Assembly (NCBI RefSeq): GCF_964204865.1
Contig: NC_135252.1
Coordinates: 13,640,001 to 13,704,000, forward strand
Origin: Styela clava
Lineage: Eukaryota
Length of the DNA: 64,000 bases
Reading direction: 5' to 3'
Below, one piece after another: positions 27,150-52,574 of this stretch. A model generated the notes under the pieces. The model was not told the origin of the DNA. It worked only from the letters and a program-made list of their open reading frames with translations, and did not search any database. The stretch's first letter is position 1. Each line of letters starts with the position of its first letter. The translations under genes were made by a program, and so were the position numbers.

Positions 27150-27324
27150 GTGACTCGGATCATTTGTTATTACAATTCACGTTTAGACTGAAAGCGTGAA
27201 TCATCATCGTCACAGGACCTGGAAAAGCTAACTCGGATACTCGTGACTCGGATCATTTGTTATTACAATTCACGTTTAGACTGAAAGCGTGAATCATCAT
27301 CGTCACAGGACCTGGAAAAGCTAA
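27150..27324. repeat. Tandem duplication of 82 bp
   Basis: GTGACTCGGATCATTTG...GGAAAAGCTAA at 27150-27231 and 27243-27324, identical by eye, separated by CTCGGATACTC. Confidence 0.95.
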
Positions 27325-35109: not shown

Positions 35110-38100
35110 ATGGTGAAAGAATTTGTCTTCAAGATTTGCATTTTTCTGTGGACTGTTCAAGTCATTCAATCAGGCAATTTCTCGCCCAAGCAAGATGACC
35201 CGAGTAAGTCAAACTTTACGTACTGTAAAACATATCACATATGTGGGCTATAGTTTCCGTGTACCGGTACCGATCTTCAAAAACTTCAAAAGATTCGTTT
35301 TTTATGTGTCAGAATAAATAGCGACACCTTGTGACGTGTTTCATATATTTAGCATAGCTCTCTTGTTATAAAGTGTTGTGTTTCTACAAGATTTACTATA
35401 TCTGATGTTCTTCATAATCGCACATAGTCAAACACTTCTAATTGTAACCACGTTAATGGCTTCAAAATTCCCCAAGCATTTTCCACGACAGGACGGTCTT
35501 ACTTTAAGTAATCCGGTCGAAACGGGAAATGACTCATTATTTTAGTGATCTCATGGCTCTTCAATACAATCTTTAATAATTATCTAATAAAACATGTTAG
35601 TTGGATAACTCGACAAAACCGTACGGTGCTCTTCTACAATAACAGTAGTTTCGCAACTAAAACTACCGATCTTTTCAATGAGGTATCAGAACCTTGGATG
35701 TCGCTGCCAGATAAACAACTTTGGTTCCTCGAGGTTTCCCTTTTCCATTAGAACTGTATGATTGTATGACTGATTTTTGAGTGTATGGAAAAATAAAATT
35801 GACTTGACTATTAGGAGATTGAATTTATATTCTGTTTACAATTTTTTTAACAGTTGCCTGCAAAGAAGGAGATTTCAGATGTTTGGATGGGAAAAAGTGC
35901 ATCCCTTTTCATATTTTTTGCGACGAAAGAGCTCACTGCGAGTAAGTACATTTCTGAATTTGGAAACAAGATTAGCTCATACTAAAATTGGTATGGTTAT
36001 ATTTATTGGACACGTCAGTGGACATAACGATCGTTTTGCATTTCATGGTGGCACTCTTCTTCTTGTTGTTGTTCTTTGTCACAGAGAAAAAACGATTTTC
36101 TCTTTGATTACTGAACCAATCTCTTTAAAAATGTCAGTGCTTGAAGATTAAATTTTTCGCTAGAAGGCTATTGCTTTTATTTCAAATACTCCGAGAGATG
36201 GAAGCGACGGAATACCGTACTGGCAATCATAAGATATAATGTACCGAAGTATTGTGCATTCGTCTAAATACTCTAAGTAGTTTCAGATGCTGTTCAACGT
36301 CTATAAATTCTCTATACCCATAGCTGTTGCACTGAGCGGCATTAAAAAGTGCATATTTTAGTATATTTTAAGATGGTCAATACCTATTTCATATTTGCTG
36401 GTGTATTATCACAGTGATGGAAGCGATGAAGTTTTGTACAATGCTTCTATTCACACCGCCGATGATGGTGTTCCATGCCGAGGTTATGAGGATTTGACAA
36501 GAGTTTGTTTACTTCACAATTCTGTTGCAGAAAGAGAAGAACACATATGCAATAAAAGTAAAGGGTTTGAATGTTTTGAAAATATTCATTATTTTACCAT
36601 TTTGTTGAATTAAGGATTATAATCAAATAACGATTGAATAAATATAAGTCGAGTGAAATCAATTACTAGCGAAATTGAATTTGACCTGATCGCGTTATTA
36701 TATAGCCTTTTACTCACTAGAGCTGAATTAATAAAAACCTTGCCTAGACATCTAAACCAGATGTATAAAAACATAATAGGCCTACTGCCATGACAATATA
36801 ACATTGAAATTATTTACGTCTTGGGTACGTTCAGAACGTGAGTGTCTAGGTGGATTCTTCACGTGTTCCGATAAATCAAGATGTGTGGATAAAGAACGTT
36901 ACTGCGATGGAAACCCAGACTGTAGGTATGTAGTATGACTTCTTACCTTGATGCGGCGCTAACAAACAAACTCTAAGATTGAATTCATTCTCTGCAGTGA
37001 TGGAAGCGACGAAATTGTGTACAATGCCTCAATTCATACAGAGGAAGATGGTTATTCTTGCTACATGGATGAATGGCAATATCCAAACTGTCTACTTCCC
37101 GTAGGAGGACATCCAAATCCGCATGATTGGTGTGATCCCGGTGGGCATGCCTCATTGTTACAAATTCACGTTATGTTCAAGGCATTGAAATGGTAATGTT
37201 GTCTGGTGTGAGTTTCGATCAAACTATGCCGTGTACTAGATGTCTCATATGAAGAGATACAGTTTCGAACGCCGTAGTTTTTAAGGGATTAAGGTGATAT
37301 TGAACATTACCCGGTTGCTTCCTGTACTTTGGCTACAAGTTACAACGTGCTTTTAATTGTGCTTAATGGGTGCATTATTCAAATATTCAAGCCCTCATTT
37401 TACCTAACCTGGTCCATATTTATGTAATTATATTTTCGAATAAAAAGTTTTCAAATCCTTCCGACATTGCAGAAGTAAACTGTAGTCCAGATGAGTTTTT
37501 ATGCGAGGATGGAAAGCAGTGTATTCCCAAGACACGATATTGCAACTTAGAAAAAGACTGCAGGTATACATCTAATTTACAACAAATCAACTTATTCTGG
37601 TACTAACTGAATGTGTTAGTAGACATCATCTGTGTTTACATGATCTTAGAAAAATTATCCGTCTATGTTGCAAACTGTAACGCTTTTCGTAAACATCAGC
37701 ATATGACGCGTACCCATTCATCAGCGATTTTCCACGGAGAAATGACCACCTATCTTGTTAAATGACTAATCAATTTGTCAGTTATTACCATTGGCCATAA
37801 AAGCGATTACATCTCTCAAAATTTTTAAAATGAATACTGTCGTTAGAAGTGGAATGAATCAGTACACGGATTTAAAATACAGTCAGTTTTTACAAATATT
37901 TTTACAAGGGATGGAAGCGATGAAATTGTCTACGATTCGTCGATATTAAAACCAAATGACCACAGAGTTAAATGTAGAAGTTTTGCAAAAGTAGATCACT
38001 TCTGCTTACTGGGAGGAAAATTTGTTTTTGATGAAGAGGATTACTGCAATTTAAACGACACACCACCTGTTCAAGGTAACCAGAATTTATTAGGATTTCA

Positions 38101-41100
38101 TAATAAGTGAAGATTCGCATGTAATTGAAGCATTTTCATGCCACTAGAATGCAATAACAATCTTCTTACAATTTTCCAACAGTTGCCTGCAAAGAAGGGT
38201 ATTTCAGATGTTTGGATGGAAAAAAGTGCATAAATTTTTTTGATTTTTGCGACGAAAGAGTTCACTGCGAGTAAGTTCATTAACAAATTAAAAATAAAAT
38301 TGAAATTTATGTTTGTGCATTTCCGTATTTTATTTTGTCATCCTGCTTATTCTGATTTAGAGACGGAAGTGATGAGATATTGTTCGACTCAGCGATTCAT
38401 ACACCAGACAACGGAGTGTCGTGTCAAAATAAATTTAGAGACAGATTCTGTCTTCTACCACCCGATTATGATTCTTCAAAGCATTGTTTTTCTATCGAAT
38501 TTGATTGTCTTCCTGAATGGTTTATCTGTGCTAGTGGAACTCAGTGCGTTTATAAAGAATCATTTTGTGACGGGAATTCATATTGTCGGTAGGTTGTCCC
38601 TTAGATGGAAATTTTATAATCGCTTCGTTAACACTCAAAAGCAGCAAAAAGTGGCAATTATTAGATATAAAGTATCGAAGTTTTGTGCACTCGTCTAAAG
38701 TTTCAGATGCTCTGCACCTTCTATATACTTATAATACTTATATCTGTTTCATTGATCACTGAGCGACAGCAAAAGGTGACTATTTTAGTATATTTTGAAG
38801 TGGTACTTGCTATTTCGTTTTTGCTAGTCATATTCATCACTCAGATGAATAGATGGCCATTTCAATATCACATTTGAAATGCCAAATGCGTGTACAAAAT
38901 CATAGATATAAGTGTATTATCACAGTGATGGAAGCGATGAAGTTTTATACAATATTTCTATTCACACCGCCGATGATGGTGTTCCATGCCGAGGTTATGA
39001 AGATTTGACAAGAGTTTGTTTACTTCACAATTCTGTTGCAGACAGAGAACAACACATATGTAATAAAGGTAAATAAATAGTACGAATGTTTTGAAAATAT
39101 TCATTATCTTACCATTTTGAGTAATTTAAGATATATATATAATCAATGATTGGGCTGAATGATTGACTGAATATAAGCTTTGTAAAATCAATTACTGGCG
39201 AAATTGAATTTGATATTTATTTGACCTGATCGAGTTAATATATTGCTTTTTACTCATTAGAGATGGATAAATAGAACCATTGCCTGGCCATCTAAACCTT
39301 ATGTATAAAAGCATAAAATACCTACTCTCATAACAATATAACACTGAATTTGTTACGTCTTATGAATGTCAAAATGTGAATATTTATATACTTGGATATG
39401 TTCAGAACGTGAGTGTCTAGTTGGATACTTCAGGTGTTCTGATAAATCAAAATGTGTTGATAAAGAACGTTACTGCGACAGATACCCAGATTGTAGGTAT
39501 GTTGGGTAATTTCCTACCTTGATTCGGGCGCTAACAAACTAACTCTAAAATTGAGTTCATTCTATGTAGTGATGGAAGCGACGAAATTGTGTACAATGCC
39601 TCGATTCATACAGAGGAAGATGGTTATTCTTGCTACATGGATGAATGGCAATATCCAAATTGTCTACTTCCCGTAGGAGGACATCCGAATCCGCATAATT
39701 TTTGTGATCCCGGTGAGCATGCGTCATTGCTACAAATCCATGTTATGTTTAGTACATTGAAATGATAATGTTGCCTGGTGAGAGTTATGATCAAAGTATT
39801 CCGTGTATCGATATGTCTCCTATGAAGAATAACAGTTTCTACTGCCGTAATTATTAGGGGATTAAGGTGATATTGAAAATTATCCGGTTGCTTTCTGTAC
39901 TTTGGCTACAACGTGCTATGAATTGTGCTTAATGGGTGCATTTTGCTCACATATTCAAGCCCTCATTTTTTTTACCTAACCTGGTCCATGTTTATGTAAA
40001 TATATTTTCGAATTGAAAGTTTTTTAAATCTATCGGGCATTACAGAAGCACATTGTGGTTCAGATGGGTTCTTATGCGAGGATGGAAAGCAGTGTATTCC
40101 AAAGACACAATATTGCAATTTGGAAAAAGACTGCAGGTATACATCTAATTGGGGTATCAACTAAATGTGTTAATCGACACGAGCTGTATTTACGTGTTCT
40201 TAGAAGAATTATTGTATGTCTATGCTGCTTACTATAACGCTTTTCATAAACATCAGCATATTGCCGTTTCCCATTCATCAGCTATTTCTCTTGGGCAACT
40301 GACCACATATCTGGTTAAATGAATAATCAATTTGTCAGGTTTTATTTTTGGTCATAAAAGGCATGATGATTATTAAATGATTATTGTGGTTAGAAGTGAA
40401 AAAAATTAGTACACAGATATTTGGTCAGTTCCTACAAATATTTTTATAAGGGATGGAAGCGATGAAATTGTCTACGATTCGTCGATATTAAAACCAAATG
40501 ATCACAGAGTTAAATGTAGAAGTTTTGCAAAAGTAGATCACTTCTGCTCATTAGGAGGGAAATTTGTTTTTGATGAAGAGAATTACTGCAATTTAAAGGA
40601 CACACCGCCTATTCAAGGTAAGCAGGGTTTATTGGAATTTTGTTAGAAGTTAAGATTCGCATGTAATTGAACATTTTACATATCACGATACCCGGAGAAA
40701 GTATTTACAATGCTCTTACAACTTTTCAACAGTTGCCTGCAAAGAAGGGTATTTCAGATGTTGGGATGGAAAAAAGTGCATTCATTTTCATAATTTTTGC
40801 GACGAAAGAGTTCACTGCGAGTAAGTTCTTTGATAAAATAAAAATTTGGAAATTGAATGGAAATTTTTGTGTATCTCCTTATTTTATGCTGTCATGCTAT
40901 TTATTCTTGCTTATTCTGATTCAGTGACCGAAGTGATGAAATATTGTTCGACTCAGAGATTCACACACCAGACAATGGAGTGTCGTGTCAAAACAAATAT
41001 AGAGACAGATTCTGTTTTCTACCTCACGAATATGATTCTTCAAAGTATTGTTTCTCTATCGAATTTGATTGTCGTCCTGAATGGTTTGTCTGTGCCAGTG

Positions 41101-44100
41101 GAACTCAGTGTGTTCATAAAGAAGCATTTTGTGACGGACAACCCTATTGTCGGTAGGTTGTTCCTTTTGTGAAGTTTTTAATGTTTGTTCTACTGAAAGA
41201 TAGAGGGAAATATTTATATCTTCATTTGTTGGTCATTGACTTCTCAGGTTTTCAATAATGTGTATCATTTGTTATACTTTTATTTCCCCTAGATTGACTG
41301 TCGTTGGCTGACGTCTGCAACAGTACTTTTCGGAGCAATTAATACTGTTTGCCATCTATACTATTTTTTTATACTTCTAACTGCTAGGCATTGACCATAT
41401 ATATGGTCATTATAAGGGTGCTATCAAAAGACTCTCATACCTGTTTAATTTTGTTTGATTGCTAGTCATATTTATCAGATAAATGAACGTTCATTTCAAC
41501 GCCTAGATTGAAATTCAAAATTACTGAATTAAACTATAATATAAATGCATTATTTCAGTGATGGAAGTGATGAAGTTTTGTACAATGATTCTATTCACAC
41601 CGCCGATGATGGCGTTCCATGTCGAGGTTACCGAGATTTGACAAGAGTTTGTTTACTTCATAATTCTGTTGTTGACAGAGAAGAACACATATGTAATAAA
41701 GGTAGAGAGTTGAAATATTTTGAAAATATTCAATTTCTGAAATTTCAGATATACTCAAAGATGAGATAAGTGATTAAATAAAAAATATAAGCTGAATAAA
41801 TTTTTGGCAAAATTGAAATTGATATTTTTTAAATCAGACAGAATTATTATATTTACTCAGTAGAAGAATATTTATGAAAAATCTTGCATTTCAATCTAGA
41901 CGTCTAAATGTATATATTAAAAATATTATTGTCATTTAAATACAATATTGACATTAATATGCATCTTTTTATTGACAAAATGTATTTTTTTTTGTATCTT
42001 TGGATATGTTCAGAACGTGAGTGTCTAGTTGGAAACTTCAGGTGTTCCGATAAATCAGAATGTGTGAATAAAGAACGCTATTGCGACAGAAACCCAGATT
42101 GTAGGTATGTTGCAAAATTTTCTACACTGTAAAAATGTATACATTTTGCGGTTTCGACGTTATTTATCATTGAATTTATTCTCTGCAGCGATGGAAGTGA
42201 CGAAATTGTATACGATGCCTCAATTCATACAGAGGAAGATGGGTATTCTTGTTACATAGGTGAATGGCAATATCCAAATTGTCTACTTCCCGTAGGAGGA
42301 CATCCGAAACCGCATCATTTTTGTGACCCCGGTAAGCAGGCCTCATTGTTATAAATTCAATTCGAGTTTGGTGCTTTGATAAAATTTTAATGGATGTTGA
42401 TAGATACGATCAATAATTTTCGTGCACTATATGTGTCTTCTAAGCTAAAAGAATTTAAATCGACGCAATTATCATGGGGTTAAATTAATATAGTAGTACC
42501 CAGGAGCATTCTGTACTTGGCCACTAGTAGTGAAAGCATTTTGCTCGAATGTATGTCCCGATCTTAGCAATGTTATCCATTCTTATTTACACCTAATCGA
42601 ATCCAAATTCAATTTCTACTATTAATTCATTTGTTATTACAGAAGTGGAATGTCCCTATGGATTCTTATGTGAGGATGGAAAGCAATGTATTCCAAAAAC
42701 ACAGTATTGCAATTTGGAGAGAGACTGCAGGTACTAACTTAGTTTACTATAATACAGCTTTGAGTGGTAACTGAATATTTTAGCATAGTTTTAAAAATTT
42801 CTTCTTGTCTACGCTGCTAATCAAAATTTTCTCCAAACATCGGACTTTGACGGTATACTGTCCACCAAATTTCACCCTTTGTGAACAAGTGCGATTTTAC
42901 GTTGATAAATATTCTGAAATTGTTTAACCTCATTATACACTTAAAATTATTATGTAATGATGCTAAGCTCATTACTATAAGTTTTTTTTCTCTCAAGGGA
43001 TGGAAGCGATGAAATTGTCTACAATTCGTCAATATTAAAACCAAATGATCACAGAGTAAAATGTAGAAGTTTTGCAAAATTCGATCACTTCTGCTTATTA
43101 GGAGGAAAATTTGTTTTTGATGAAGAGGATTACTGCAATTTAAACGACACACCGCCTATTCAAGGTAACCAGAATTTATTAGAATTTTATTTAAAGTGGA
43201 GATTTGCATGTAATTGAACATTTTACAAACCACGATACCTGGAGAATGCATTAACAATCTTCTTACAATTTTTCAACAGTTGCCTGCAAAGAAGGGTATT
43301 TCAGATGTTGGGATGGGAAAAAGTGCATCGATTTTCATAATTTTTGCGACGAAAGAGTTCACTGCGAGTAAGTTCTTCAATAAGATAGAAATTAAAAGTT
43401 TGAAAAATAAAATTGAAATTTTTGTGTATCTCCTCATTTTATTTTGCCATCCTATTTATTCTTGTCTATTCTGATTCAGTGACGGAAGTGATGAAATATT
43501 GTTCGACTCAGATATTCACACACCAGACAACGGAGTGTCGTGTCAAAACAAATATAGAGACAGATTCTGTTTTCTACCTCACGAATATGATTCTTCAAAG
43601 TATTGTTTCTCTATCGAATTTGATTGTCGTCCTGAATGGTTTGTCTGTGCCAGTGGAACTCAGTGTGTTTATAAAGAAGTATTTTGTGATGGATATTCCA
43701 ATTGTCGGTAGGTTGTTTCTTTTGTGAAGTTTTTAATGTTTGTTCTACTGAAAGATAGAGCGAAATATTTATGTCTCCATTTGTTGGTCATTGACTTCTT
43801 AGGTATTCAATAATGTGTATCACTTGTTATACCTTTATCTCCTCTAGATTAACTGTCGTTGGCTGATGTCTGCAACAGTATTTTTCGGAGCAATTGATAC
43901 TGTTTGCCATCTATACTATTTTTTTATACTTCTAACTGCCAGGCAATGATCATATGGTCGGTAAAAGGGTGCTATCAAGAGTCTCATACCTGTTAAATTT
44001 TGTTTGATTGCTATTCATAGATAAGAACGTCCATTTTTCAACGTCTAGATTGAAATTTGAAATTACACAATTAAATTATAATATAAATGCATTATTTCAG

Positions 44101-47084
44101 TGATGGAAGTGATGAAGTTTTGTACAAAGATTCAATTCACACCGCTGGTGTACCATGTCGAGGTTATCAAGATTTGACAAGAGTTTGTTTACTTCATAAT
44201 TCTGTTGTTGGCAGAGAAGAACACATATGTAATAAAGGTAGAAGATTGAAACATTTGGAAAAGATTTGATTTCTGTAATTTCAGATATACTCAAAGATGA
44301 GATAAATGATTAAATAAATATAGTTAAAAAATTTTGGCGACATTGAGTTTGATATATTTCTTAAATCAGACTGAATTATTATATTTACTCACTAGAAGTA
44401 GATTTATGAAAAATCTTACATCTTCATCGAATTCTAAACCTAATGTATAAAACAAATATTATCATTTAAATACAGCAATATTTAAATTAGTATGCACCTG
44501 ATTAATGGCAAAATGTAATTATTTTATATTTGGATATGTTCAGATCGAGAGTGTCCAGTTGGATACTTCATATGTTCTGATAAATCAAGATGTGTGGAAA
44601 AAGAACGCTTTTGCGACAGAAACCCTGATTGTAGGTATGTTGCACACTTTTCTACACTGTAACAATGTATACAATGGTGCGGTTTCGAGGTTATTTATCA
44701 TTGAATTCATTCTCTGCAGCGATGGAAGCGACGAAATCGTATACAATGCATCCAGATTCATTCAGATGAAGATGGGTATTCTTGTTACATGGGAGAATGG
44801 CAATATCCAAATTGTCTACTTCCCGTAGGAGGACATCGGAAACCGCTTCAGTTTTGAGACCCCGGTAAGCATGCCTCATTGTTACAAATTCAAGTCAAGT
44901 TTGGTGCTTTGATAAAAAGATAATGAATGATGATAGATACGATCAATAATTTCCGTGCATTACATGTGTCTTCTAAAGTAAAACAATTTGAAACAACGCA
45001 GTTTTCATGGGGTTTAATTAATATAGTAGTACCCTAGAACTGCCCTGGCTACTTGTAGTGAAAGCATTTTGCTCGAATGTATGCTCCAATCTTAACAATG
45101 TTATTCATTCTTAAGTACATCTAATATAAGCCGAATTAAATTTCTACGATTAAGTTCCCCTGTTATTGCAGAAGTGGAATGTCCCTATGGATTCTTATGT
45201 GAGGATGGGAAGCAATGTATTCCAAAAACACAGTATTGCAATTTAGAAAGAGACTGCAGGTACTAATTTAGTTTACAACAAAACAGCTCCGAGCGTAACT
45301 GAATATTTAGCAAGTTTTTAATTGCTAATTGAAATTTTTACTCAACATCGGACTATGATGGTATATCGTCCACCAAATTTCACCCTTTGTGAAAAAATGT
45401 TTTTACGTTGATATATTATCTGGAATTATTTAAAATTATTATGTAATGATGCCAAGTCTATTCCTATAAGTTTTTTTCTCTCTCAAGGGATGGAAGCGAT
45501 GAAATTGTCTACGATTTATTGACATTGGAACCTAATGACCACAGAGTCAAATGTAGAAGTTTTGCAAAAGTCGATCACTTCTGCTTACTAGGAGGAAGAT
45601 TCACTTTTGATGAAGGGGATTTCTGTAATTTAGGCAAGCTAATTCACTTGTTATAGTAGTATAAGAAAAATGTTTAGTGAATTCTCCATTATATACTATA
45701 TATTATATAGGAAGTGACATGGCTAGAACTCACAAAAGGTTTAACTTTATTTCTGATTCAGCAATATAAATTATACCTTGAAAATAGATTCTGAATGAGA
45801 AGTTGTAGAATTCTGCATATCGACGAATCAGCAAATAAAACAAAAGATTTTTTTGTTATTTTTAGAATGTTCTGATGACAGTTTCATGTGCGACGACAAA
45901 TCAAAATGTATTGAACGCCATCGATTTTGTGACGGGATAAAAGACTGCGCGTAAGTCATTCCCGATGCAACATTACTTTTTTCCCAAAAATTGAACACGC
46001 TGTCTGTACTAAAAGAATATATTTCTACTATTTTACTTCTCAGCAATATCGAGCTGTGACTTTTTAATCCTGTACTTTTGAATTTGTATGCGATCTGTGT
46101 AATTATTTTCAGTGATGAAAGTGACGAAAGAAGATTTAATGAATACAAAGACAAAATTAAGGGTGTTGGATGCAGAAGTTGGACTCTGTTGAGTCGTATT
46201 TGCTTGTTGCCCACTGATCAGGCTAATAAAAGAAAGAACATTTGTAACGTTGGTTAGTTTGAATTATTGTTTCGTAGGACTAAATTGTATTATAAGGGCT
46301 TTGAAAGTACTCAAATAGTTGATATTAGTATTAATCAAGTTACAATTACAATTGTAAATAAATTCTACACTAATATATATCGATATAAACATTATAAAGC
46401 CTATAAATGTACTTGTTCTGAATATGATTCTTAGCAAAATTGGGGTGCGTTGCTAATACCTTTATTTTTGCATCTTCGTAATGGTAACCAGAGACGGTAA
46501 TTTGTTAATCGGAAAACTCCAGTGAGCTCCTTACACTTTAAGCTATTATCTGTATTACGATACAATTCCTGGTTGAATAATTCTGTTTCTACACCGCGAA
46601 AGTCGTGCCCAGACAAAAATGAGGGAGTGTGTTTCTGACGAATCTAAAGAAAAAGAATGATAAACACCACCACAACCCATACGCTTAATGCGACTAACTT
46701 CGTCATCTACTATTATTTTAGCACCTCGTAGGTGCGATGCAGGGTTTTTCAGATGCTTGTCAGGAATGAAATGCATTCCGAAAGAAAAATTTTGCGATGG
46801 AAGACGAGATTGCAGGTGATGAAATTTACCATTATGTTCAACTAGGAAAGACTAAATAATTTTACGCCAAGTATTTTTTGAAATCACGTCGATAGTCATT
46901 GTCGAAATCGCATTGAAGTTGTAAAAATATATGAGAATCATTTTTTTGCAGGGATGATGAAATAGAATATGACGAGGCAATCCATAGTCCAGATATTGGA
47001 GTTCCATGCCAGGGAAGAAATGGAAAGATCTGTCTCCTCCCTTCAAAATTCAAATCTAACAATCACACTAACATCTGTACATGA
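35110..47084 (+). CDS. Secreted multi-LDL-receptor-class-A-like repeat protein (17 modules, 32 exons, ~1362 aa ancestral frame); exon 44720-44864 disrupted
   Basis: Signal exon 35110-35203 (MVKEFVFKICIFLWTVQVIQSG...). Then exons 35854-35941, 36415-36557, 36835-36925, 36998-37140, 37473-37563, 37909-38075 | 38183-38270, 38361-38588, 38926-39068, 39406-39496, 39570-39712, 40046-40136, 40451-40617 | 40733-40820, 40925-41152, 41559-41701, 42014-42104, 42189-42331, 42643-42730, 42998-43164 | 43280-43367, 43480-43707, 44101-44237, 44544-44634, 44720-44864 (broken), 45172-45259, 45488-45633 | 45866-45950, 46113-46252, 46722-46815, 46952-47084 (TGA). Phases are consistent. Repeated CxxxxFxCxDxxxCIxxxxxCDxxxDCxDGSDE motif, no C-terminal TM segment, AATAAA at ~47275. 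Confidence 0.85.
35820..45640 (+). repeat. Four tandem genomic units (~2.3-2.55 kb) including introns
   Basis: The exon starting TTGCCTGCAAAGAAGG recurs at 35854, 38183, 40733 and 43280. Neighbouring exons and much intron sequence repeat in the same order. Confidence 0.95.
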
Positions 47085-47634
47085 AACGAAGATGTGGACA
47101 GTGCATGAGTTGAGCTATGTTGTTGTTAATATGTTTTATGGCGCTCAAAACATCTGTGGTTATTTGAGTCTAGCTTATAAGTGAAATCGCAATTTCAGAA
47201 TCTGACAAATGCGGATTTTTGTTGTAGCTGTGCGTATCGGTGTTATTTGCAAAAATGTAATGGGTGAAAATTGCAATAAAAATATTATATCGACTCCTAT
47301 GGTAATGCATGTATAACATATGAAACGATGTCTTTAATGTTCTCTGTTCAGAGATCTACACAAAACAAGTCAGCAAGTCCGAACGCGACCCAAACCAGAC
47401 CTTAGATGAAATAGTTGACTTCAAAATTCTGTAACAAAATGATATATTAATGCTGCAAATATGCTTAAGTGTAGAAATTATTATTATTATTAATGTACCA
47501 GGAGATGACAAGCTTGAGCAAACATTACGATGAAGTTTAATTATTGAATAACAGTTCACTCTTCACTGAATGACTTTTCAAAACGGCCAGTTACTCATGT
47601 CCCTCGTCATTATCGCTTTTCATTGTCACCAGGT

Positions 47635-49345
47635 TTAAGCATTCATCCAATCAGGATACATTTTCTCCCAGTCATTTGTAATATTCATCAAATGTGGCCA
47701 CAACACCTTTGACACAAGTTGATTTCCTTTTTCCGAGAAATGTAAACCGTCTTTTAACAACTCTCCTAAATCTAATTCCGAATTCATAAATTCTTCCCAT
47801 AAATTTACGAATCCACATAACTTTGTTGAAGCCACCTGAAAGGAAACAGCATAACCAGAAGTTCATTAAAAAAAATTGTAATATATACTCAATTGTTTCT
47901 AAACACCCTTAAATACATGGGAAGTTTTTGATTGATTTTTTTTATAAACAAAAAATTACAGGCATGTATATAATATGGTATAGATATGAAAAAAATCACT
48001 ATAAATATCGATTGTACCGATCACATAATTATGTATTTAGTCACATTAATTTCCAGATATAAATAGTGTGAAATCAACGATTTTTATATATACTGGTATA
48101 TAACGTGTGTCCACATAACTGATTAAGAGTGGCTCCGTCAGTTAGTAGTAAACGTCTTCAACGAAATATCTTTCTTCAAACTAGTAACTAAATACCTTTC
48201 CACAAGTATCAGCATACAATTTAACAAAATCATTATCTTTATTGCAAACGATGCCGCTTTTTCCATCTTTTAAAAATTTTGTCCACATCTAAATGTAAGC
48301 GCAGTGTTAAAAAAAATGAACGTCTTGTGAACACATCGCGGAAATTCATGCAATTTCTTATCTCCTAATCTTAACACACAAATAGATACTTGCTGTGTGT
48401 TTAATTTCCTTTTACCATTTTTGACATTCTTTGTGTCTTTCTTATCTGTGGAGTTTTCTGAAAACATATATATTATATATATATATTATTAAAAAATGAC
48501 CTAAATTATTACCTCGGGTTCTGTCGCTGGAGGAGACACCACAATGATCTGAGATGCAGGCAGTCCTAGTAGCTGAATGAAGTGTTCGATAAGTTTATGA
48601 AGATTGCTCTCAAATTCTTGTATCGGAACATGCTGCGAGAATCCGGGAAGGAATGAGTCGTTTGCTCCGAAAAATATAACGACAACATCCGATGGCTGTT
48701 ATAAAATGGAATTACGTAATGATCAAACAATTATTCATTAGTCTGTCTGAATTTGAATGAACTAACATCAGATCTGTACAACGATCAATACAGGTTAGAG
48801 GTTCAACGGACAGCACTTCTGAATTTGAAACCGCCGGTATGCTGTTAACGTTCAACACAAAATAGCCTCAAATATTTATACTGCTGTACTAATAATTGTT
48901 GTCTTCTCTTCGATGTCTAACTCAACAATCATTTTTCAAGCAGTGGGCCACAAAATATAGGCCTACGTACGCCAACTGATCCACTAGGAAACATATCATT
49001 TAGCCGGCCCACTGCATTTTTAGTTCAATACCCTTCAAATACCTCTTAATATATATTTATATATATATTGTAGGCTACTAATAAATGTTGTCTTCTCGTT
49101 GGTGTCTAACTCAACAATCATTTCCCAAGCGTGCCACATAATATACTTACGCCAACTGATCCACTAGGAAACAAATCATTTAGCAGGTTCACTGCATTTT
49201 TCGTGCAATACCCTTCAAAACCTCTGTTCAAGACATCTGCTTTTCTCTGTAATTGATCAGCTATAGCTGAACCAAATCCTTGCGGCTGAAACGAGTACTG
49301 GGTCAACGAATCTCCGAAGAAAATCAGTTTCCGCCACGTTGGCAT
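47635..49345 (-). CDS. IAH1: Isoamyl acetate-hydrolyzing esterase 1-like SGNH/GDSL hydrolase, copy A (223 aa)
   Basis: Exons 49345-49151, 48695-48513, 48288-48196, 47835-47635 (all phase 0). Motifs FGDSLTQ, NRGFEGY, FFGANDS, QHVP and DGLHFSEKGN are typical of IAH1. Confidence 0.9.
48887..49046 (-). repeat. Degenerate tandem copy of the IAH1-A exon1/intron1 junction
   Basis: Aligns with ~49075-49226 (CGCCAACTGATCCACTAGGAAAC...CCCTTCAAA), with substitutions and small indels. Confidence 0.9.
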
Positions 49346-50229
49346 GATTGTATACTATATATAACAAAATTACAGTGCTGAAATACTACCTTATGTTGCC
49401 GATATTAGGCCAATGCAAACAAGGTAAATCGGGCAGTATGTTTGTCTATCGGTGGTATGTATACTGCCGTCAGTTGGGAACCAGCGTTTGCCTTATTTTG
49501 ACCAAATAGCATAACGAGCACGTTCCAATCCCAAACAAATATAGTACGGTTCCGTGAAGTCAAAATTTTGTTGTAATGGCAGAAAAACCGTAAATAATGA
49601 TAGGGTAACTGCTAAACTAGTTTTATATGCATAATAATATATACTTGAGTATCATCCAGGTAGTTTTATTGAAATGTGTGAACACGAATAACCCATGCTC
49701 AGTAATACAGCATTAGTTACAGGTACAATTAGTTAGCGAAAAAACGCAGACTTATAGCTAAATATATATATATAATTGGTGTCTACATATGCCGTAAGAA
49801 TGAACTTAATAGCTCTTACCTTGTCATTGGTAGTTTGCGACTATTTCATTCAATGTTCTTTCTAATCTTTTTCGACATAGCGTGCAAAACAGCCTGAGAA
49901 ACAACGCAGTTTCGCTGTCTATATATACCCTAAGGAGAAATAACGATCAGGCGAAGAAAGCAATATAAGAACTTCTTTTCTGGGGCTGTTTCAACATTGA
50001 TTTGCTATCGAAGCCTAATTAATAGCTACCACGTGAAAGCAAACAGCGGAATGCTATATGCGGATCGAGAACGGAAAGATTTGGTTGCATTACATACATT
50101 CAGCCAGGCTGGCGATTCTTTAGGGTATTATGCAATAAGAAGAATCAAAAGATCAACAAAGTACACCATTCAACAAAATTATAAATTGTATTGCGTAATC
50201 CAAATTATCAAGCTTTGCAACTAGTGTCT

Positions 50230-50365
50230 AGTGATCTCCAAACGGTAAACTCTGTTCTTCACGGTACATTTTAAAGTAATCTTAGTTATTCACTCATAAG
50301 TACGCAACCCCATCAATTGAGGTTGTAATGCCACCACGAATAGCTTCCAAGTTTGAGAAACCACT
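50230..50365. mobile_element. Degenerate short hAT-like MITE
   Basis: AGTGATCTCCAAAC ... GTTTGAGAAACCACT form imperfect terminal inverted repeats. No convincing TSD. Confidence 0.35.
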
Positions 50366-50433
50366 TCCATGGAAAACATCATTTATTTCCTCACAATAAA
50401 TTACCTAATGTCTTATTCACCAAAACTCATTTA

Positions 50434-52574
50434 TTATAAATCATAAAACGTTTGCCATTCTGCATAATTCATTTCCCACTCTTCAGACATCTTAAGTATA
50501 TGCGGAAGAATTAGCTTCGTAACTAATCGATTTCCTTCCTCTGAAAAATGAAGTCCATCGTTCAGTAACTTGTTATACTCTTCCTCTCGCATAAAACTCT
50601 CCCACAAGTTTACAAACGGACAAGACATATCCGACGCAATCTGTTATGGAATATTAGCATTATTTAGCCGCCCTTATTTCGAATAATCAATAAAGTAATG
50701 AATGTATACCCGTGAGCAGGCTTCGGCATATTTTTTTGTATTTTCGTTGTCTCTGTCAACCTCTGTTCCTTTGTTCTCTGATATTAAGTGTGCCAACCAT
50801 TTCTGTGTGTGAGATATAAGAATTACAATCAGTTTGCCTGTACAGACCCTTGTTTGGAGCGCCGAAGGTAAATGGTATAAATATATTTCCATATGAAAGC
50901 ATATGAAATAAGCTCTTTAAACGATATGATATTGCAATGAATGAGCTGTGGACTTATATGCGATGGCTATTCGTGGAGACGAATGCAGCAAAATCGATGT
51001 AGTCTAAATTCATAATCTGGTATTATTAATTACGATAAATAACAAGAGAGCTATGCTCAAATATATGGACACGTAGCGCCACCTGATGGCAAAAAAATTG
51101 ATGACGTCATAGCAACAAAAAAAGTAATAGCTTTCTGAAGAAAATTTTTATCTTTAACCATTGAAAATTTCAAAGCAATTGGTCCAGTAATCAAAGAAAT
51201 AAGCGACTTTTTAAAAACGTGTCAAAGAACAAGAACAACAACATAATATTGAAACGATCGCTATGTCCACTATGTGTCCAAAAACACAGCAGTCCCAATA
51301 AATGAGAAACCTACAATACCTCTGTATCAACTACTGGGGGAGATATGATGAGTATTCGCGATGATGGCAATCCAAGTCCTGTAAGGTGGTTGATAATTTT
51401 GCGACAGTTGGATTCATATCTTTGTATAGGAACGTGCTGATGAAAGCCGCTTAGTACAGAATCGTTTGCCCCGAAGCAAACTGTGATGGCATCCTCGGCC
51501 TAAGAAACGAAATACGGACATTGGCGATACAATTACTAAAAATTAACTGGTAAATTTAAAATCATCTGAATAGGTATACTAATCCCAATTAATAAACTAA
51601 AGCAGTGGTCTCGGATAATTTCCTTCCACACTATGCTACTATAAATATATTTGTATGATCTTTAATGGGTCCTAAGTTAATTTTATGCCTAACTTACACT
51701 CTGGCTTTTGCACCTTAGAGTAATTTATAATGTTTGCATAAATATGTATTATAATAATGAAGAATACAAGTAATACTGCAGCAAATACAATGCGAAATTT
51801 CTCCAAGGAATCAACAAAATTGCTCTGTGACAAGGAATTCCTCCTCGGTATGGAAACATGGAAATAAAGTCTTTAAACTGGTTGGATAAACTTGTTTTGC
51901 GTTCACCATGCAAGATAGTGATATACTTTTGAATTACAATTTTCACGGGCAACTATTCAAAAGTATTGTGGTGATAATTCACACAAGCAACTACTGCTAG
52001 TGTGAGGTGTTCAACCACTCAATCGATCTGAACGAGCCGAAAAACAATGCCAGAATGCCTAGTATGGGTCACTACTCACTATGATGTCGCTTTCTCTCCA
52101 AGCTACGTTCTGTACACATGATTACCATAACATGGCCGACCGTATCCATGTGTGAGTTCGCTCCATAGTACTCTCAGTATATACAGTAATAATGAACTAT
52201 TTGAACTTCGGTACGATATCTGCGGACAACATGGTTCTCGTAGTTTTCCGAGACAACCATTCACAGAGCCGATATTATTGACTGTATTCCCTCGGGTGAA
52301 AGCGGGAAGTATACATCTTATTCAATTTATGAAACAGGGAAGTGGAACTACTGTGGCTTCGAGTCGACACCTTTCTTACCTTGAGAGAGCCAGTGGGAAA
52401 TACGCCGTGCAACATTGCAACTGCATTGTCTGTGTTGTAACCTGAAAATCCTCGGTTAATTACGTCCGCCTTTCTCTGTAGTTCATTTGCGATTGCTGAA
52501 CCGAATCCTTGAGGCTGGAAGGAATATTGCGTCAACGAATCGCCGAACAAAATCATTTTTTTCCAAGCAGCCAT
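50434..52574 (-). CDS. IAH1: Isoamyl acetate-hydrolyzing esterase 1-like SGNH/GDSL hydrolase, copy B (224 aa)
   Basis: Exons 52574-52380, 51499-51320, 50802-50710, 50640-50434 (all phase 0), with the same intron positions as copy A. Motifs FGDSLTQ, NRGFSGYNT, FGANDS and DGLHFSEEGN. Confidence 0.9.
51041..51282. mobile_element. Short non-autonomous repeat (Helentron/DINE-like architecture) in an IAH1-B intron
   Basis: Begins AACAAG (CTTGTT end on the minus strand). Subterminal inverted repeats TGGACACGTAG (51066-51076) / CTATGTGTCCA (51270-51280) and an internal AAC-rich simple tract. Confidence 0.5.

What the first reader, a model, noticed from the sequence alone, without database searches (positions are those of the whole stretch)
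35854..46815. Half-module exons are phase-interchangeable: potential combinatorial splicing
Seen: every module is split at the same point (C-x|DGSDE). All N-half exons (85-94 nt) run phase 1->2 and all C-half exons (137-167 nt) run phase 2->1. The 228-nt exons are fused C+N halves (2->2). Any N-half can therefore join any downstream C-half in frame, and any adjacent pair can be skipped. Inference: a substrate for isoform diversity with hybrid binding modules and variable valency, and for frame-safe repeat gain or loss.
Basis: partly seen in the sequence, partly recalled or inferred. Interest (0 to 1): 0.7.

Follow-up and report, generated by a model that had tools for sequence, protein, structure and literature searches.

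The report
Copy-number-variable secreted sea-squirt repeat protein
A sea-squirt gene for a predicted secreted chain of binding modules does have exons that could be swapped without breaking the reading frame, but three related receptor genes share that layout, the RNA seen shows no in-frame swap, and the module number differs between two database versions of the gene, likely through uneven crossing-over of the DNA.

Summary
The phase pattern is real but not universal: 14 of 14 N-half exons run 1->2, 12 of 13 internal C-halves run 2->1, and 3 of 3 fused exons run 2->2. One C-half (44720-44864) is frameshifted, and only 23 of 29 adjacent pairs can be skipped in frame. The gene is Styela clava LOC120342772: a signal peptide, 17 eight-cysteine LDLa-plus-tail modules and no membrane segment. 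Three LDLa-array GPCR paralogues have the same split at 25 of 25 half-exons found, so the symmetry is inherited. Spliced contigs show 13 next-type joints, one frame-breaking skip and no in-frame hybrid among 14 exon joints displayed (low depth, 14 rows hidden). The diversity is seen at DNA level. An older RefSeq model has at least 18 modules (about 23 if its missing front is colinear) in another order, with the dead exon intact. Unit 1 has lost its fused exon, leaving a hard-wired hybrid module. Units are under purifying selection (dN/dS 0.19-0.33). It works like the LPA kringle copy-number array, not like Dscam. Frame-safe gain and loss is supported; combinatorial splicing is not, though rare isoforms are not excluded. 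No earlier scan note covers it.

The parts
35110..35203 (+). First coding exon, predicted signal peptide, phase 1 out
   Evidence: only hydrophobic window of the protein, KD 1.61; start of XP_077966781.1
35854..38075 (+). Unit 1 (6 exons, 3 modules): NA 35854-35941, CB 36415-36557, NC 36835-36925, CC 36998-37140, ND 37473-37563, CD 37909-38075; lacks the fused exon, so NA joins CB as a hybrid module
   Evidence: joint CB->NC in spliced contig; the NA->CB joint itself was not among the rows shown
36003..36183 (.). Dispersed ~180-nt repeat inserted where the fused exon of unit 1 would be
   Evidence: 41 matches listed from 40 scored of 3032 candidates in the genome; loose ends
36196..36214 (+). 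Probable remnant of the lost fused exon: AG followed by codons for DGSD, no donor; sequence after it aligns with the intron behind the fused exon of unit 2
   Evidence: remnant status is inference
38183..40617 (+). Unit 2 (7 exons, 4 modules): NA 38183-38270, fused 38361-38588, CB 38926-39068, NC 39406-39496, CC 39570-39712, ND 40046-40136, CD 40451-40617
   Evidence: four neighbour joints in spliced contigs
40733..43164 (+). Unit 3 (7 exons): NA 40733-40820, fused 40925-41152, CB 41559-41701, NC 42014-42104, CC 42189-42331, ND 42643-42730, CD 42998-43164
   Evidence: joints fused->CB, CB->NC, CD->NA
43280..45633 (+). Unit 4 (7 exons): NA 43280-43367, fused 43480-43707, CB 44101-44237, NC 44544-44634, CC 44720-44864 (broken), ND 45172-45259, CD 45488-45633 (GC donor)
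   Evidence: ND->CD and CD->NE in spliced contigs
44720..44864 (+). Broken C-half exon: 2-nt insertion (frameshift) and a TGA at the last Cys codon; splice sites intact
   Evidence: alignment with CC3; insertion matched without gap by a 540-nt contig of run X1, which reads TGT at 44857; exon intact in XP_039267677.1
45866..47084 (+). Two terminal modules: NE 45866-45950, CE 46113-46252, NG 46722-46815, CG 46952-47084 ending in TGA just after the last Cys; no membrane segment follows
   Evidence: no 7TM match in the window; joints CE->NG and NG->CG, contigs run on past the stop; RefSeq now files NG+CG as a separate 86-aa model XP_077966783.1

Best explanation
This is a gene for a predicted secreted chain of 17 LDL-receptor-type modules, each cut into two exons at the same place as in three related G-protein-coupled receptor genes, and the chain likely grows, shrinks and recombines by uneven crossing-over of the DNA while splicing is likely mostly linear. 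Shown: exon layout, shared phases in paralogues, absence of a membrane segment, four ~2.6-kb units, purifying selection, a different module number and order in a second RefSeq model, an in-frame loss of one fused exon and a real frameshift allele. Inferred: the array arose by repeated duplication of a phase 1-2-1 two-exon module, then of a four-module unit; only duplications and deletions that keep the frame survive, so phase compatibility is the result of that history and not evidence of a splicing programme. Inferred with less support (about 0.4): the protein is a detached receptor ectodomain that binds the same kind of ligand with high avidity, as a soluble scavenger or decoy whose valency differs between alleles.
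For: Same cut and phases at 13 of 13 N-halves and 12 of 12 C-halves in paralogues on C4, C6, C9, all three with 7TM exons (Pfam 7tm_1 on P0004). Units 1-2 and 3-4 are closest (dS 0.175), introns 71-92% alike, dN/dS 0.19-0.33 in 6 of 6 unit pairs with the broken exon left out. XP_039267677.1 follows the window order to NA3 and a fused-3-like exon, jumps back to unit-1/2-like exons, has a CD->NC junction, then resumes at unit 3: the form expected of unequal crossing-over. 13 of 14 exon joints shown are next-type and 0 are in-frame skips; one search adds only next-type joints and loose ends, apart from one row of unknown middle. LPA KIV-2 has the same arithmetic (160 + 182 nt), and a donor mutation in one repeat gave a null allele (PMC4378929, passages).
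Against: The copy-number claim rests on one 5'-incomplete gene model whose DNA I could not see; mis-assembly or modelled skipping could contribute. RNA evidence is four low-depth contig sets (depth about 2-8) from one study; 14 of 29 joint rows were hidden and 10 of the 13 next-type rows are flagged 'between: not known'. One contig does skip an exon (CB->CC), so splicing is not perfectly linear. Intron pairs scoring >=36 number 6 against 2.3 +/- 1.2 in shuffles. The direction receptor -> secreted form was not resolved by the trees. No ligand, tissue or protein evidence exists.
Confidence: 0.75

Rival explanations
1. Combinatorial splicing: one allele gives many in-frame chains with hybrid modules, and pair skipping also rescues the frameshift allele.
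For: 214 of 435 non-neighbour joints are phase-matched. Skipping the broken exon with either neighbour restores a 1285-1286-aa frame to the natural stop. The frameshift looks homozygous in run X1 by depth. A hybrid module (NA1+CB1) is tolerated in the genome. Some donors are weak (GC at 45633, gtgggc at 37140).
Against: 0 in-frame skips among 14 exon joints shown; the one skip seen breaks the frame. In X9 the exon before an exact ND4 match is a CC-type end, not CB, though that animal's allele is unknown. Exons after the frameshift differ from the intact model at 5 of 227 residues against 1 of 384 before it (Fisher p 0.027), including DGSDE->DESDE, which fits decay rather than rescue. Best intron pairing is reached by 4 of 40 shuffles. 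Introns are short (72-650 nt, median 277).
Confidence: 0.12
2. The frameshift allele is not null: it makes a shorter secreted protein (13 whole modules) that is still under selection, so truncation is a second way to set valency.
For: Sequence before the frameshift is conserved between the two models and sequence after it is not (1 of 384 vs 5 of 227). The allele is in the assembly and apparently on both chromosomes of another animal. A secreted chain needs no C-terminal anchor. The exon skip seen in X7 falls into the same frame and stops at the matching codon.
Against: The stop lies six junctions before the last exon, a likely target of nonsense-mediated decay (recalled rule). The difference could come from local haplotype depth, since no synonymous data exist for the other model. 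Small counts, and the test was chosen after seeing the data. No RNA contig spans the insertion.
Confidence: 0.2
3. Function rival: the protein is a structural, calcium-dependent matrix or egg-coat cross-linker and has nothing to do with the receptors' ligands.
For: Long secreted cysteine-rich arrays under purifying selection suit a matrix role. Sea-urchin fertilization-envelope proteins are recalled as LDLa arrays (one search gave listings only; not verified).
Against: Only 3 of 13 whole modules in P0001 keep all four acidic calcium ligands (ligand positions recalled). Closest named relatives are receptor ectodomains. Contig depth was low in the four RNA runs, whose tissues are unknown.
Confidence: 0.3

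Closest known systems
Ascidian LDLRR-GPCRs (Ciona; Kamesh et al. 2008, PMC2396169, passages read); Styela LOC120346100 / XP_039271686.2
   Same: Tandem LDLa repeats without LRRs. The Styela paralogues carry the same extended eight-cysteine module with the same exon cut.
   Different: The window gene has no 7TM part and 17 or more modules against 4-5 in the paralogues, from recent unit duplications.
LPA kringle IV type 2 copy-number array (PMC4378929, passages read)
   Same: Secreted protein; each module in two exons of 3n+1 and 3n+2 nt; variable copy number; inactivating changes in a single repeat.
   Different: Different domain. The repeat unit here holds four different modules and a fused exon, copies are 80-97% alike, and population size range is unknown.
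Dscam1-type mutually exclusive exon clusters (PMC6071210, abstract read)
   Same: Duplicated exons that encode part of a domain and share phase (the half-domain layout of Dscam is recalled).
   Different: Here halves alternate N,C,N,C and neighbours are spliced together; no array of alternatives, no clear docking/selector pairing, no in-frame alternative joint seen.
LDL receptor class A module (Pfam PF00057)
   Same: 14 matching stretches in P0001 and 17 in P0138; five Cys and the DxSDE motif kept.
   Different: The next Cys lies 13-16 residues after DE, within a three-Cys tail with no Pfam or PDB match of note.

Membership tests
Dscam1-type combinatorial exon cluster | Tandem array of alternative versions of the same exon | tested here: not met
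   Exons alternate N-half, C-half; no two exons of the same class are adjacent.
Dscam1-type combinatorial exon cluster | Alternative in-frame joints in mRNA | tested here: inconclusive
   0 of 14 exon joints shown and none; contigs drop rare forms and 14 rows were hidden.
Dscam1-type combinatorial exon cluster | Docking site complementary to several selector sequences | tested here: inconclusive
   Best intron-intron helix (42) reached by 4 of 40 shuffles; 6 pairs >=36 vs 2.3 +/- 1.2, two of them copies of one element. No cross-species test was possible.
LDLRR-GPCR | Tandem LDLa repeats, no LRR | tested here: met
   Pfam on P0001 and P0138 gives PF00057 and no LRR family.
LDLRR-GPCR | Relaxin-receptor-like 7TM region | tested here: not met
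   No hydrophobic window beyond the signal peptide; no 7TM match in the window, while C4 and C6 have one; full-length model ends at the same stop.
LDLa module (PF00057) | Profile match | tested here: met
   E 1.9e-102, 14 stretches, profile positions 2-34 of 37.
LDLa module (PF00057) | Sixth Cys close behind DxSDE (canonical spacing recalled) | tested here: not met
   13-16 residues to the next Cys in 13 of 13 modules of P0001.
LDLa module (PF00057) | Four acidic calcium ligands (positions recalled) | tested here: inconclusive
   All four in 3 of 13 modules of P0001 and 5 of 17 of P0138; calcium binding not testable.
LPA KIV-2-type coding copy-number array (works-like test) | Two-exon module, 3n+1 then 3n+2 nt | tested here: met
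   LPA lengths 160 and 182 from PMC4378929.
LPA KIV-2-type coding copy-number array (works-like test) | Module number differs between haplotypes | tested here: met
   17 in the window, at least 18 in another order in XP_039267677.1; rests on a gene model, not on its DNA.
LPA KIV-2-type coding copy-number array (works-like test) | Protein size isoforms that follow genotype | not testable with these tools
   Needs protein blots of genotyped animals.

The most novel reading that the evidence does not exclude
A hypervariable secreted recognition protein of ascidians, detached from a GPCR ectodomain, whose valency and module make-up are diversified at three levels: unequal crossing-over between units, common truncating alleles that remain functional, and low-level pair skipping that builds hybrid modules.
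Probability: 0.12. Interest if true: 0.65.

Novelty: new variant of a known kind. Interest (0 to 1): 0.3.

Why it matters
As it stands it is a clear invertebrate-chordate example of a coding copy-number array. It also carries an eight-cysteine LDLa variant whose tail has no Pfam or PDB match, shared with orphan ascidian GPCRs, so the soluble form could be a handle on their ligands. It is a caution too: phase-compatible exons in a repeat gene follow from duplication and do not show a splicing programme. If long reads found abundant hybrid chains, it would be a splicing-based diversifier in a close relative of vertebrates.

Tried and rejected
AlphaFold2 of the first two modules with 11 sequences gave mean pLDDT 53.7 and pTM 0.34: too weak to use, so no fold search was run and the disulfide pattern and the fold of hybrids stay open. 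Tail profile against PDB: 0 matches at E<=10. ESM Atlas: generic LDLa clusters only, best 0.88. Trees of half-modules group the window types but leave their relation to the paralogues open; the C tree is the quick one. Search for shorter relatives: 6 hits, none from this gene. No listed run is on record as RNA; four are shown to be spliced by their GT..AG joints. Lack of RNA cover on NC4/CC4 is not used as evidence. Hi-C run X10 laid only 7 reads and is uninformative. The syn/nonsyn split of contig variants (12:4 before, 3:5 after the frameshift; p 0.10) is confounded by paralogous units and not relied on. The joint 44837->45486 in X7 (middle unknown) has the depth of the CC2->ND2 contig; if it were a true skip it would break the frame. 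The X1 joint 44240->44525 is read as a sister unit's intron, not a deletion. Assembly error as cause of the frameshift is rejected. A passage on secreted RXFP1 decoys was sought and not found. No paper on this gene or module turned up; subscription journals are not covered. The supplement of PMC2396169 with Ciona domain layouts was not read and may show whether Ciona receptors have the extended module. Earlier scan notes: none relevant.
Full report
What it is. The window is G000:C3:13640001-13704000 of a 377-Mb genome. The 228-nt exon at 38361 matches one database protein at 100%: Styela clava LOC120342772, XP_077966781.1, 1122 aa. I built 32 exons from 35110 to 47084; their linear translation equals that model up to its stop. 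The gene encodes a predicted signal peptide and 17 modules. Each module is an LDLa core with five Cys and DxSDE (PF00057) plus a three-Cys tail that matches nothing of note in Pfam or PDB. There is no membrane segment and no 7TM exon in the 17 kb of window downstream.

The observation. 14 of 14 N-halves run phase 1->2, 3 of 3 fused exons 2->2, and 12 of 13 internal C-halves 2->1. The exception, 44720-44864, has a 2-nt insertion and a TGA at its last Cys codon. 23 of 29 adjacent pairs can be skipped in frame, 214 of 435 non-neighbour joints are phase-matched, and 3 of 30 single-exon skips are safe. Splitting each module therefore makes simple skipping less safe than one exon per module would.

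The phases are inherited. Searches of the genome found the module on C4, C6 and C9. All three loci continue into 7TM exons; the C9 gene is LOC120346100, with Pfam 7tm_1. They fit the LDLRR-GPCRs described in Ciona (PMC2396169, passages). In them, 13 of 13 N-halves found by motif have a GT two bases after the fifth Cys and a phase-1 acceptor, and 12 of 12 C-halves have an AG one base before the Asp and a phase-1 GT candidate. Two unnamed proteins carry further arrays, and two more carry the fused exon in another sequence context.

The array is a duplication series. A seven-exon, four-module unit of about 2.6 kb occurs four times. Introns are 71-92% alike, units 1-2 and 3-4 are closest (dS 0.175), and dN/dS is 0.19-0.33 in 6 of 6 pairs with the broken exon left out, so there is no sign of diversifying selection. 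Unit 1 lacks the fused exon; in its place are a dispersed repeat and a probable remnant. Its closest unit has the exon, so loss is the simpler reading. This leaves one hybrid module, made in the DNA.

Copy number differs. An older RefSeq model of the same gene, XP_039267677.1 (1366 aa, front missing), turned up as a cluster member. It has 17 whole modules plus a partial one. It follows the window through ND2, CD2 and NA3 (0, 1, 0 mismatches), passes a fused-3-like exon, returns to unit-1/2-like exons, has a CD->NC junction without NA, fused and CB, then resumes at unit 3 and runs to the same stop. That is at least 18 modules, or about 23 if the missing front is colinear. I saw only the protein, not its DNA.

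The frameshift is real and polymorphic. A 540-nt contig of run X1 matches 44285-44824 with no difference at depth 45.2. Neighbouring single-copy contigs have 41.6-51.4 and a bubble has 31.2 and 24.3, so the insertion is likely on both chromosomes. That run reads TGT at 44857 at full depth, so it is likely another animal and the TGA is secondary. The older model has the exon intact. Residues after the frameshift differ from it at 5 of 227, before it at 1 of 384 (p 0.027, post hoc). This fits decay of the 3' part on this allele and argues against rescue by skipping; it leaves open a working truncated product.

RNA. Four contig sets from one study were laid on the array. Of 29 joints 15 were shown, 14 of them between exons. 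13 join an exon to the next exon type (10 flagged 'between: not known'; two of them map back to another unit's copy). One, in X7 at depth 6, joins CB to CC without NC and breaks the frame. None is an in-frame skip. On unit 4 the RNA rows were CB->NC, CC->ND, ND->CD and one of unknown middle; loose ends gave NC->CC, CC->ND4 and CD4->NE. Depth was about 2-8 and contigs drop rare forms, so this shows the main chain is linear and does not exclude minor ones. Whole-unit skips would be invisible.

No clear pairing signal. Docking and selector pairing defines structure-guided mutually exclusive clusters (PMC6071210, abstract). The best intron-intron helix is reached by 4 of 40 shuffles; pairs scoring 36 or more number 6 against 2.3 +/- 1.2, two of them copies of one element that would loop out a single exon.

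Mechanism and comparison. The best reading is a linear, predicted secreted repeat protein whose length and make-up vary by unequal crossing-over. The closest working analogue is LPA KIV-2: two exons of 160 and 182 nt per module, 1 to over 40 copies, and a null allele from one donor mutation (PMC4378929, passages). Symmetric phases around domains are a known general pattern of debated cause (PMC2926785, passages). Function is inferred only: I favour a soluble multivalent binder detached from the receptor ectodomain (about 0.4) over a matrix cross-linker (about 0.3). The LDLa module of RXFP1 is described as needed for activation (PMC12687439, passage). The structure prediction was too weak to help.

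Verdict. Observation partly confirmed; frame-safe gain and loss supported; combinatorial splicing unsupported (about 0.12). No paper on this gene or module was found (listings seen), and no earlier scan note bears on it. New variant of a known kind; interest 0.3.

Noticed in passing
window 36003-36183: A dispersed ~180-nt repeat with 3032 candidate places in the genome, abundant in the RNA contigs; class not determined.
   Followed up: partly
window 47600-51510, minus strand: Two neighbouring GDSL-esterase-like genes; first exon of one has a weak Lipase_GDSL match (E 0.003, under the cut-off), and the exons looked at are open in both.
   Followed up: partly
G000:C4 13.08-13.10 Mb, C6 15.81-15.85 Mb, C9 14.63-14.65 Mb (L007-L012, L035-L041): Three LDLa-array GPCR genes with 4-5 extended modules; C4 and C6 modules pair up in the trees.
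   Followed up: partly
window 45633/45634: A GC donor is used: contigs join CD4 to NE in the RNA runs.
   Followed up: yes
P0004 residues ~380-410 and the window C-halves: In the GPCR paralogue the last tail runs on into a further LDLa-like ending, which suggests that the three-Cys tail is a cut-down second LDLa; by eye only.
   Followed up: no
window 41701 -> 39570: One RNA contig skips an N-half alone; the product stops at the codon matching the stop of the genomic frameshift, in the same shifted frame.
   Followed up: partly
P0129, P0130: Unnamed proteins with the fused C+N exon; in P0129 it is followed by a C-half resembling CE, so the fusion appears older than the four-unit expansion.
   Followed up: no
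window 48887-49225 and 27150-27324: Short direct duplications outside the array (160 nt at 86%; 82 nt at 100%).
   Followed up: no
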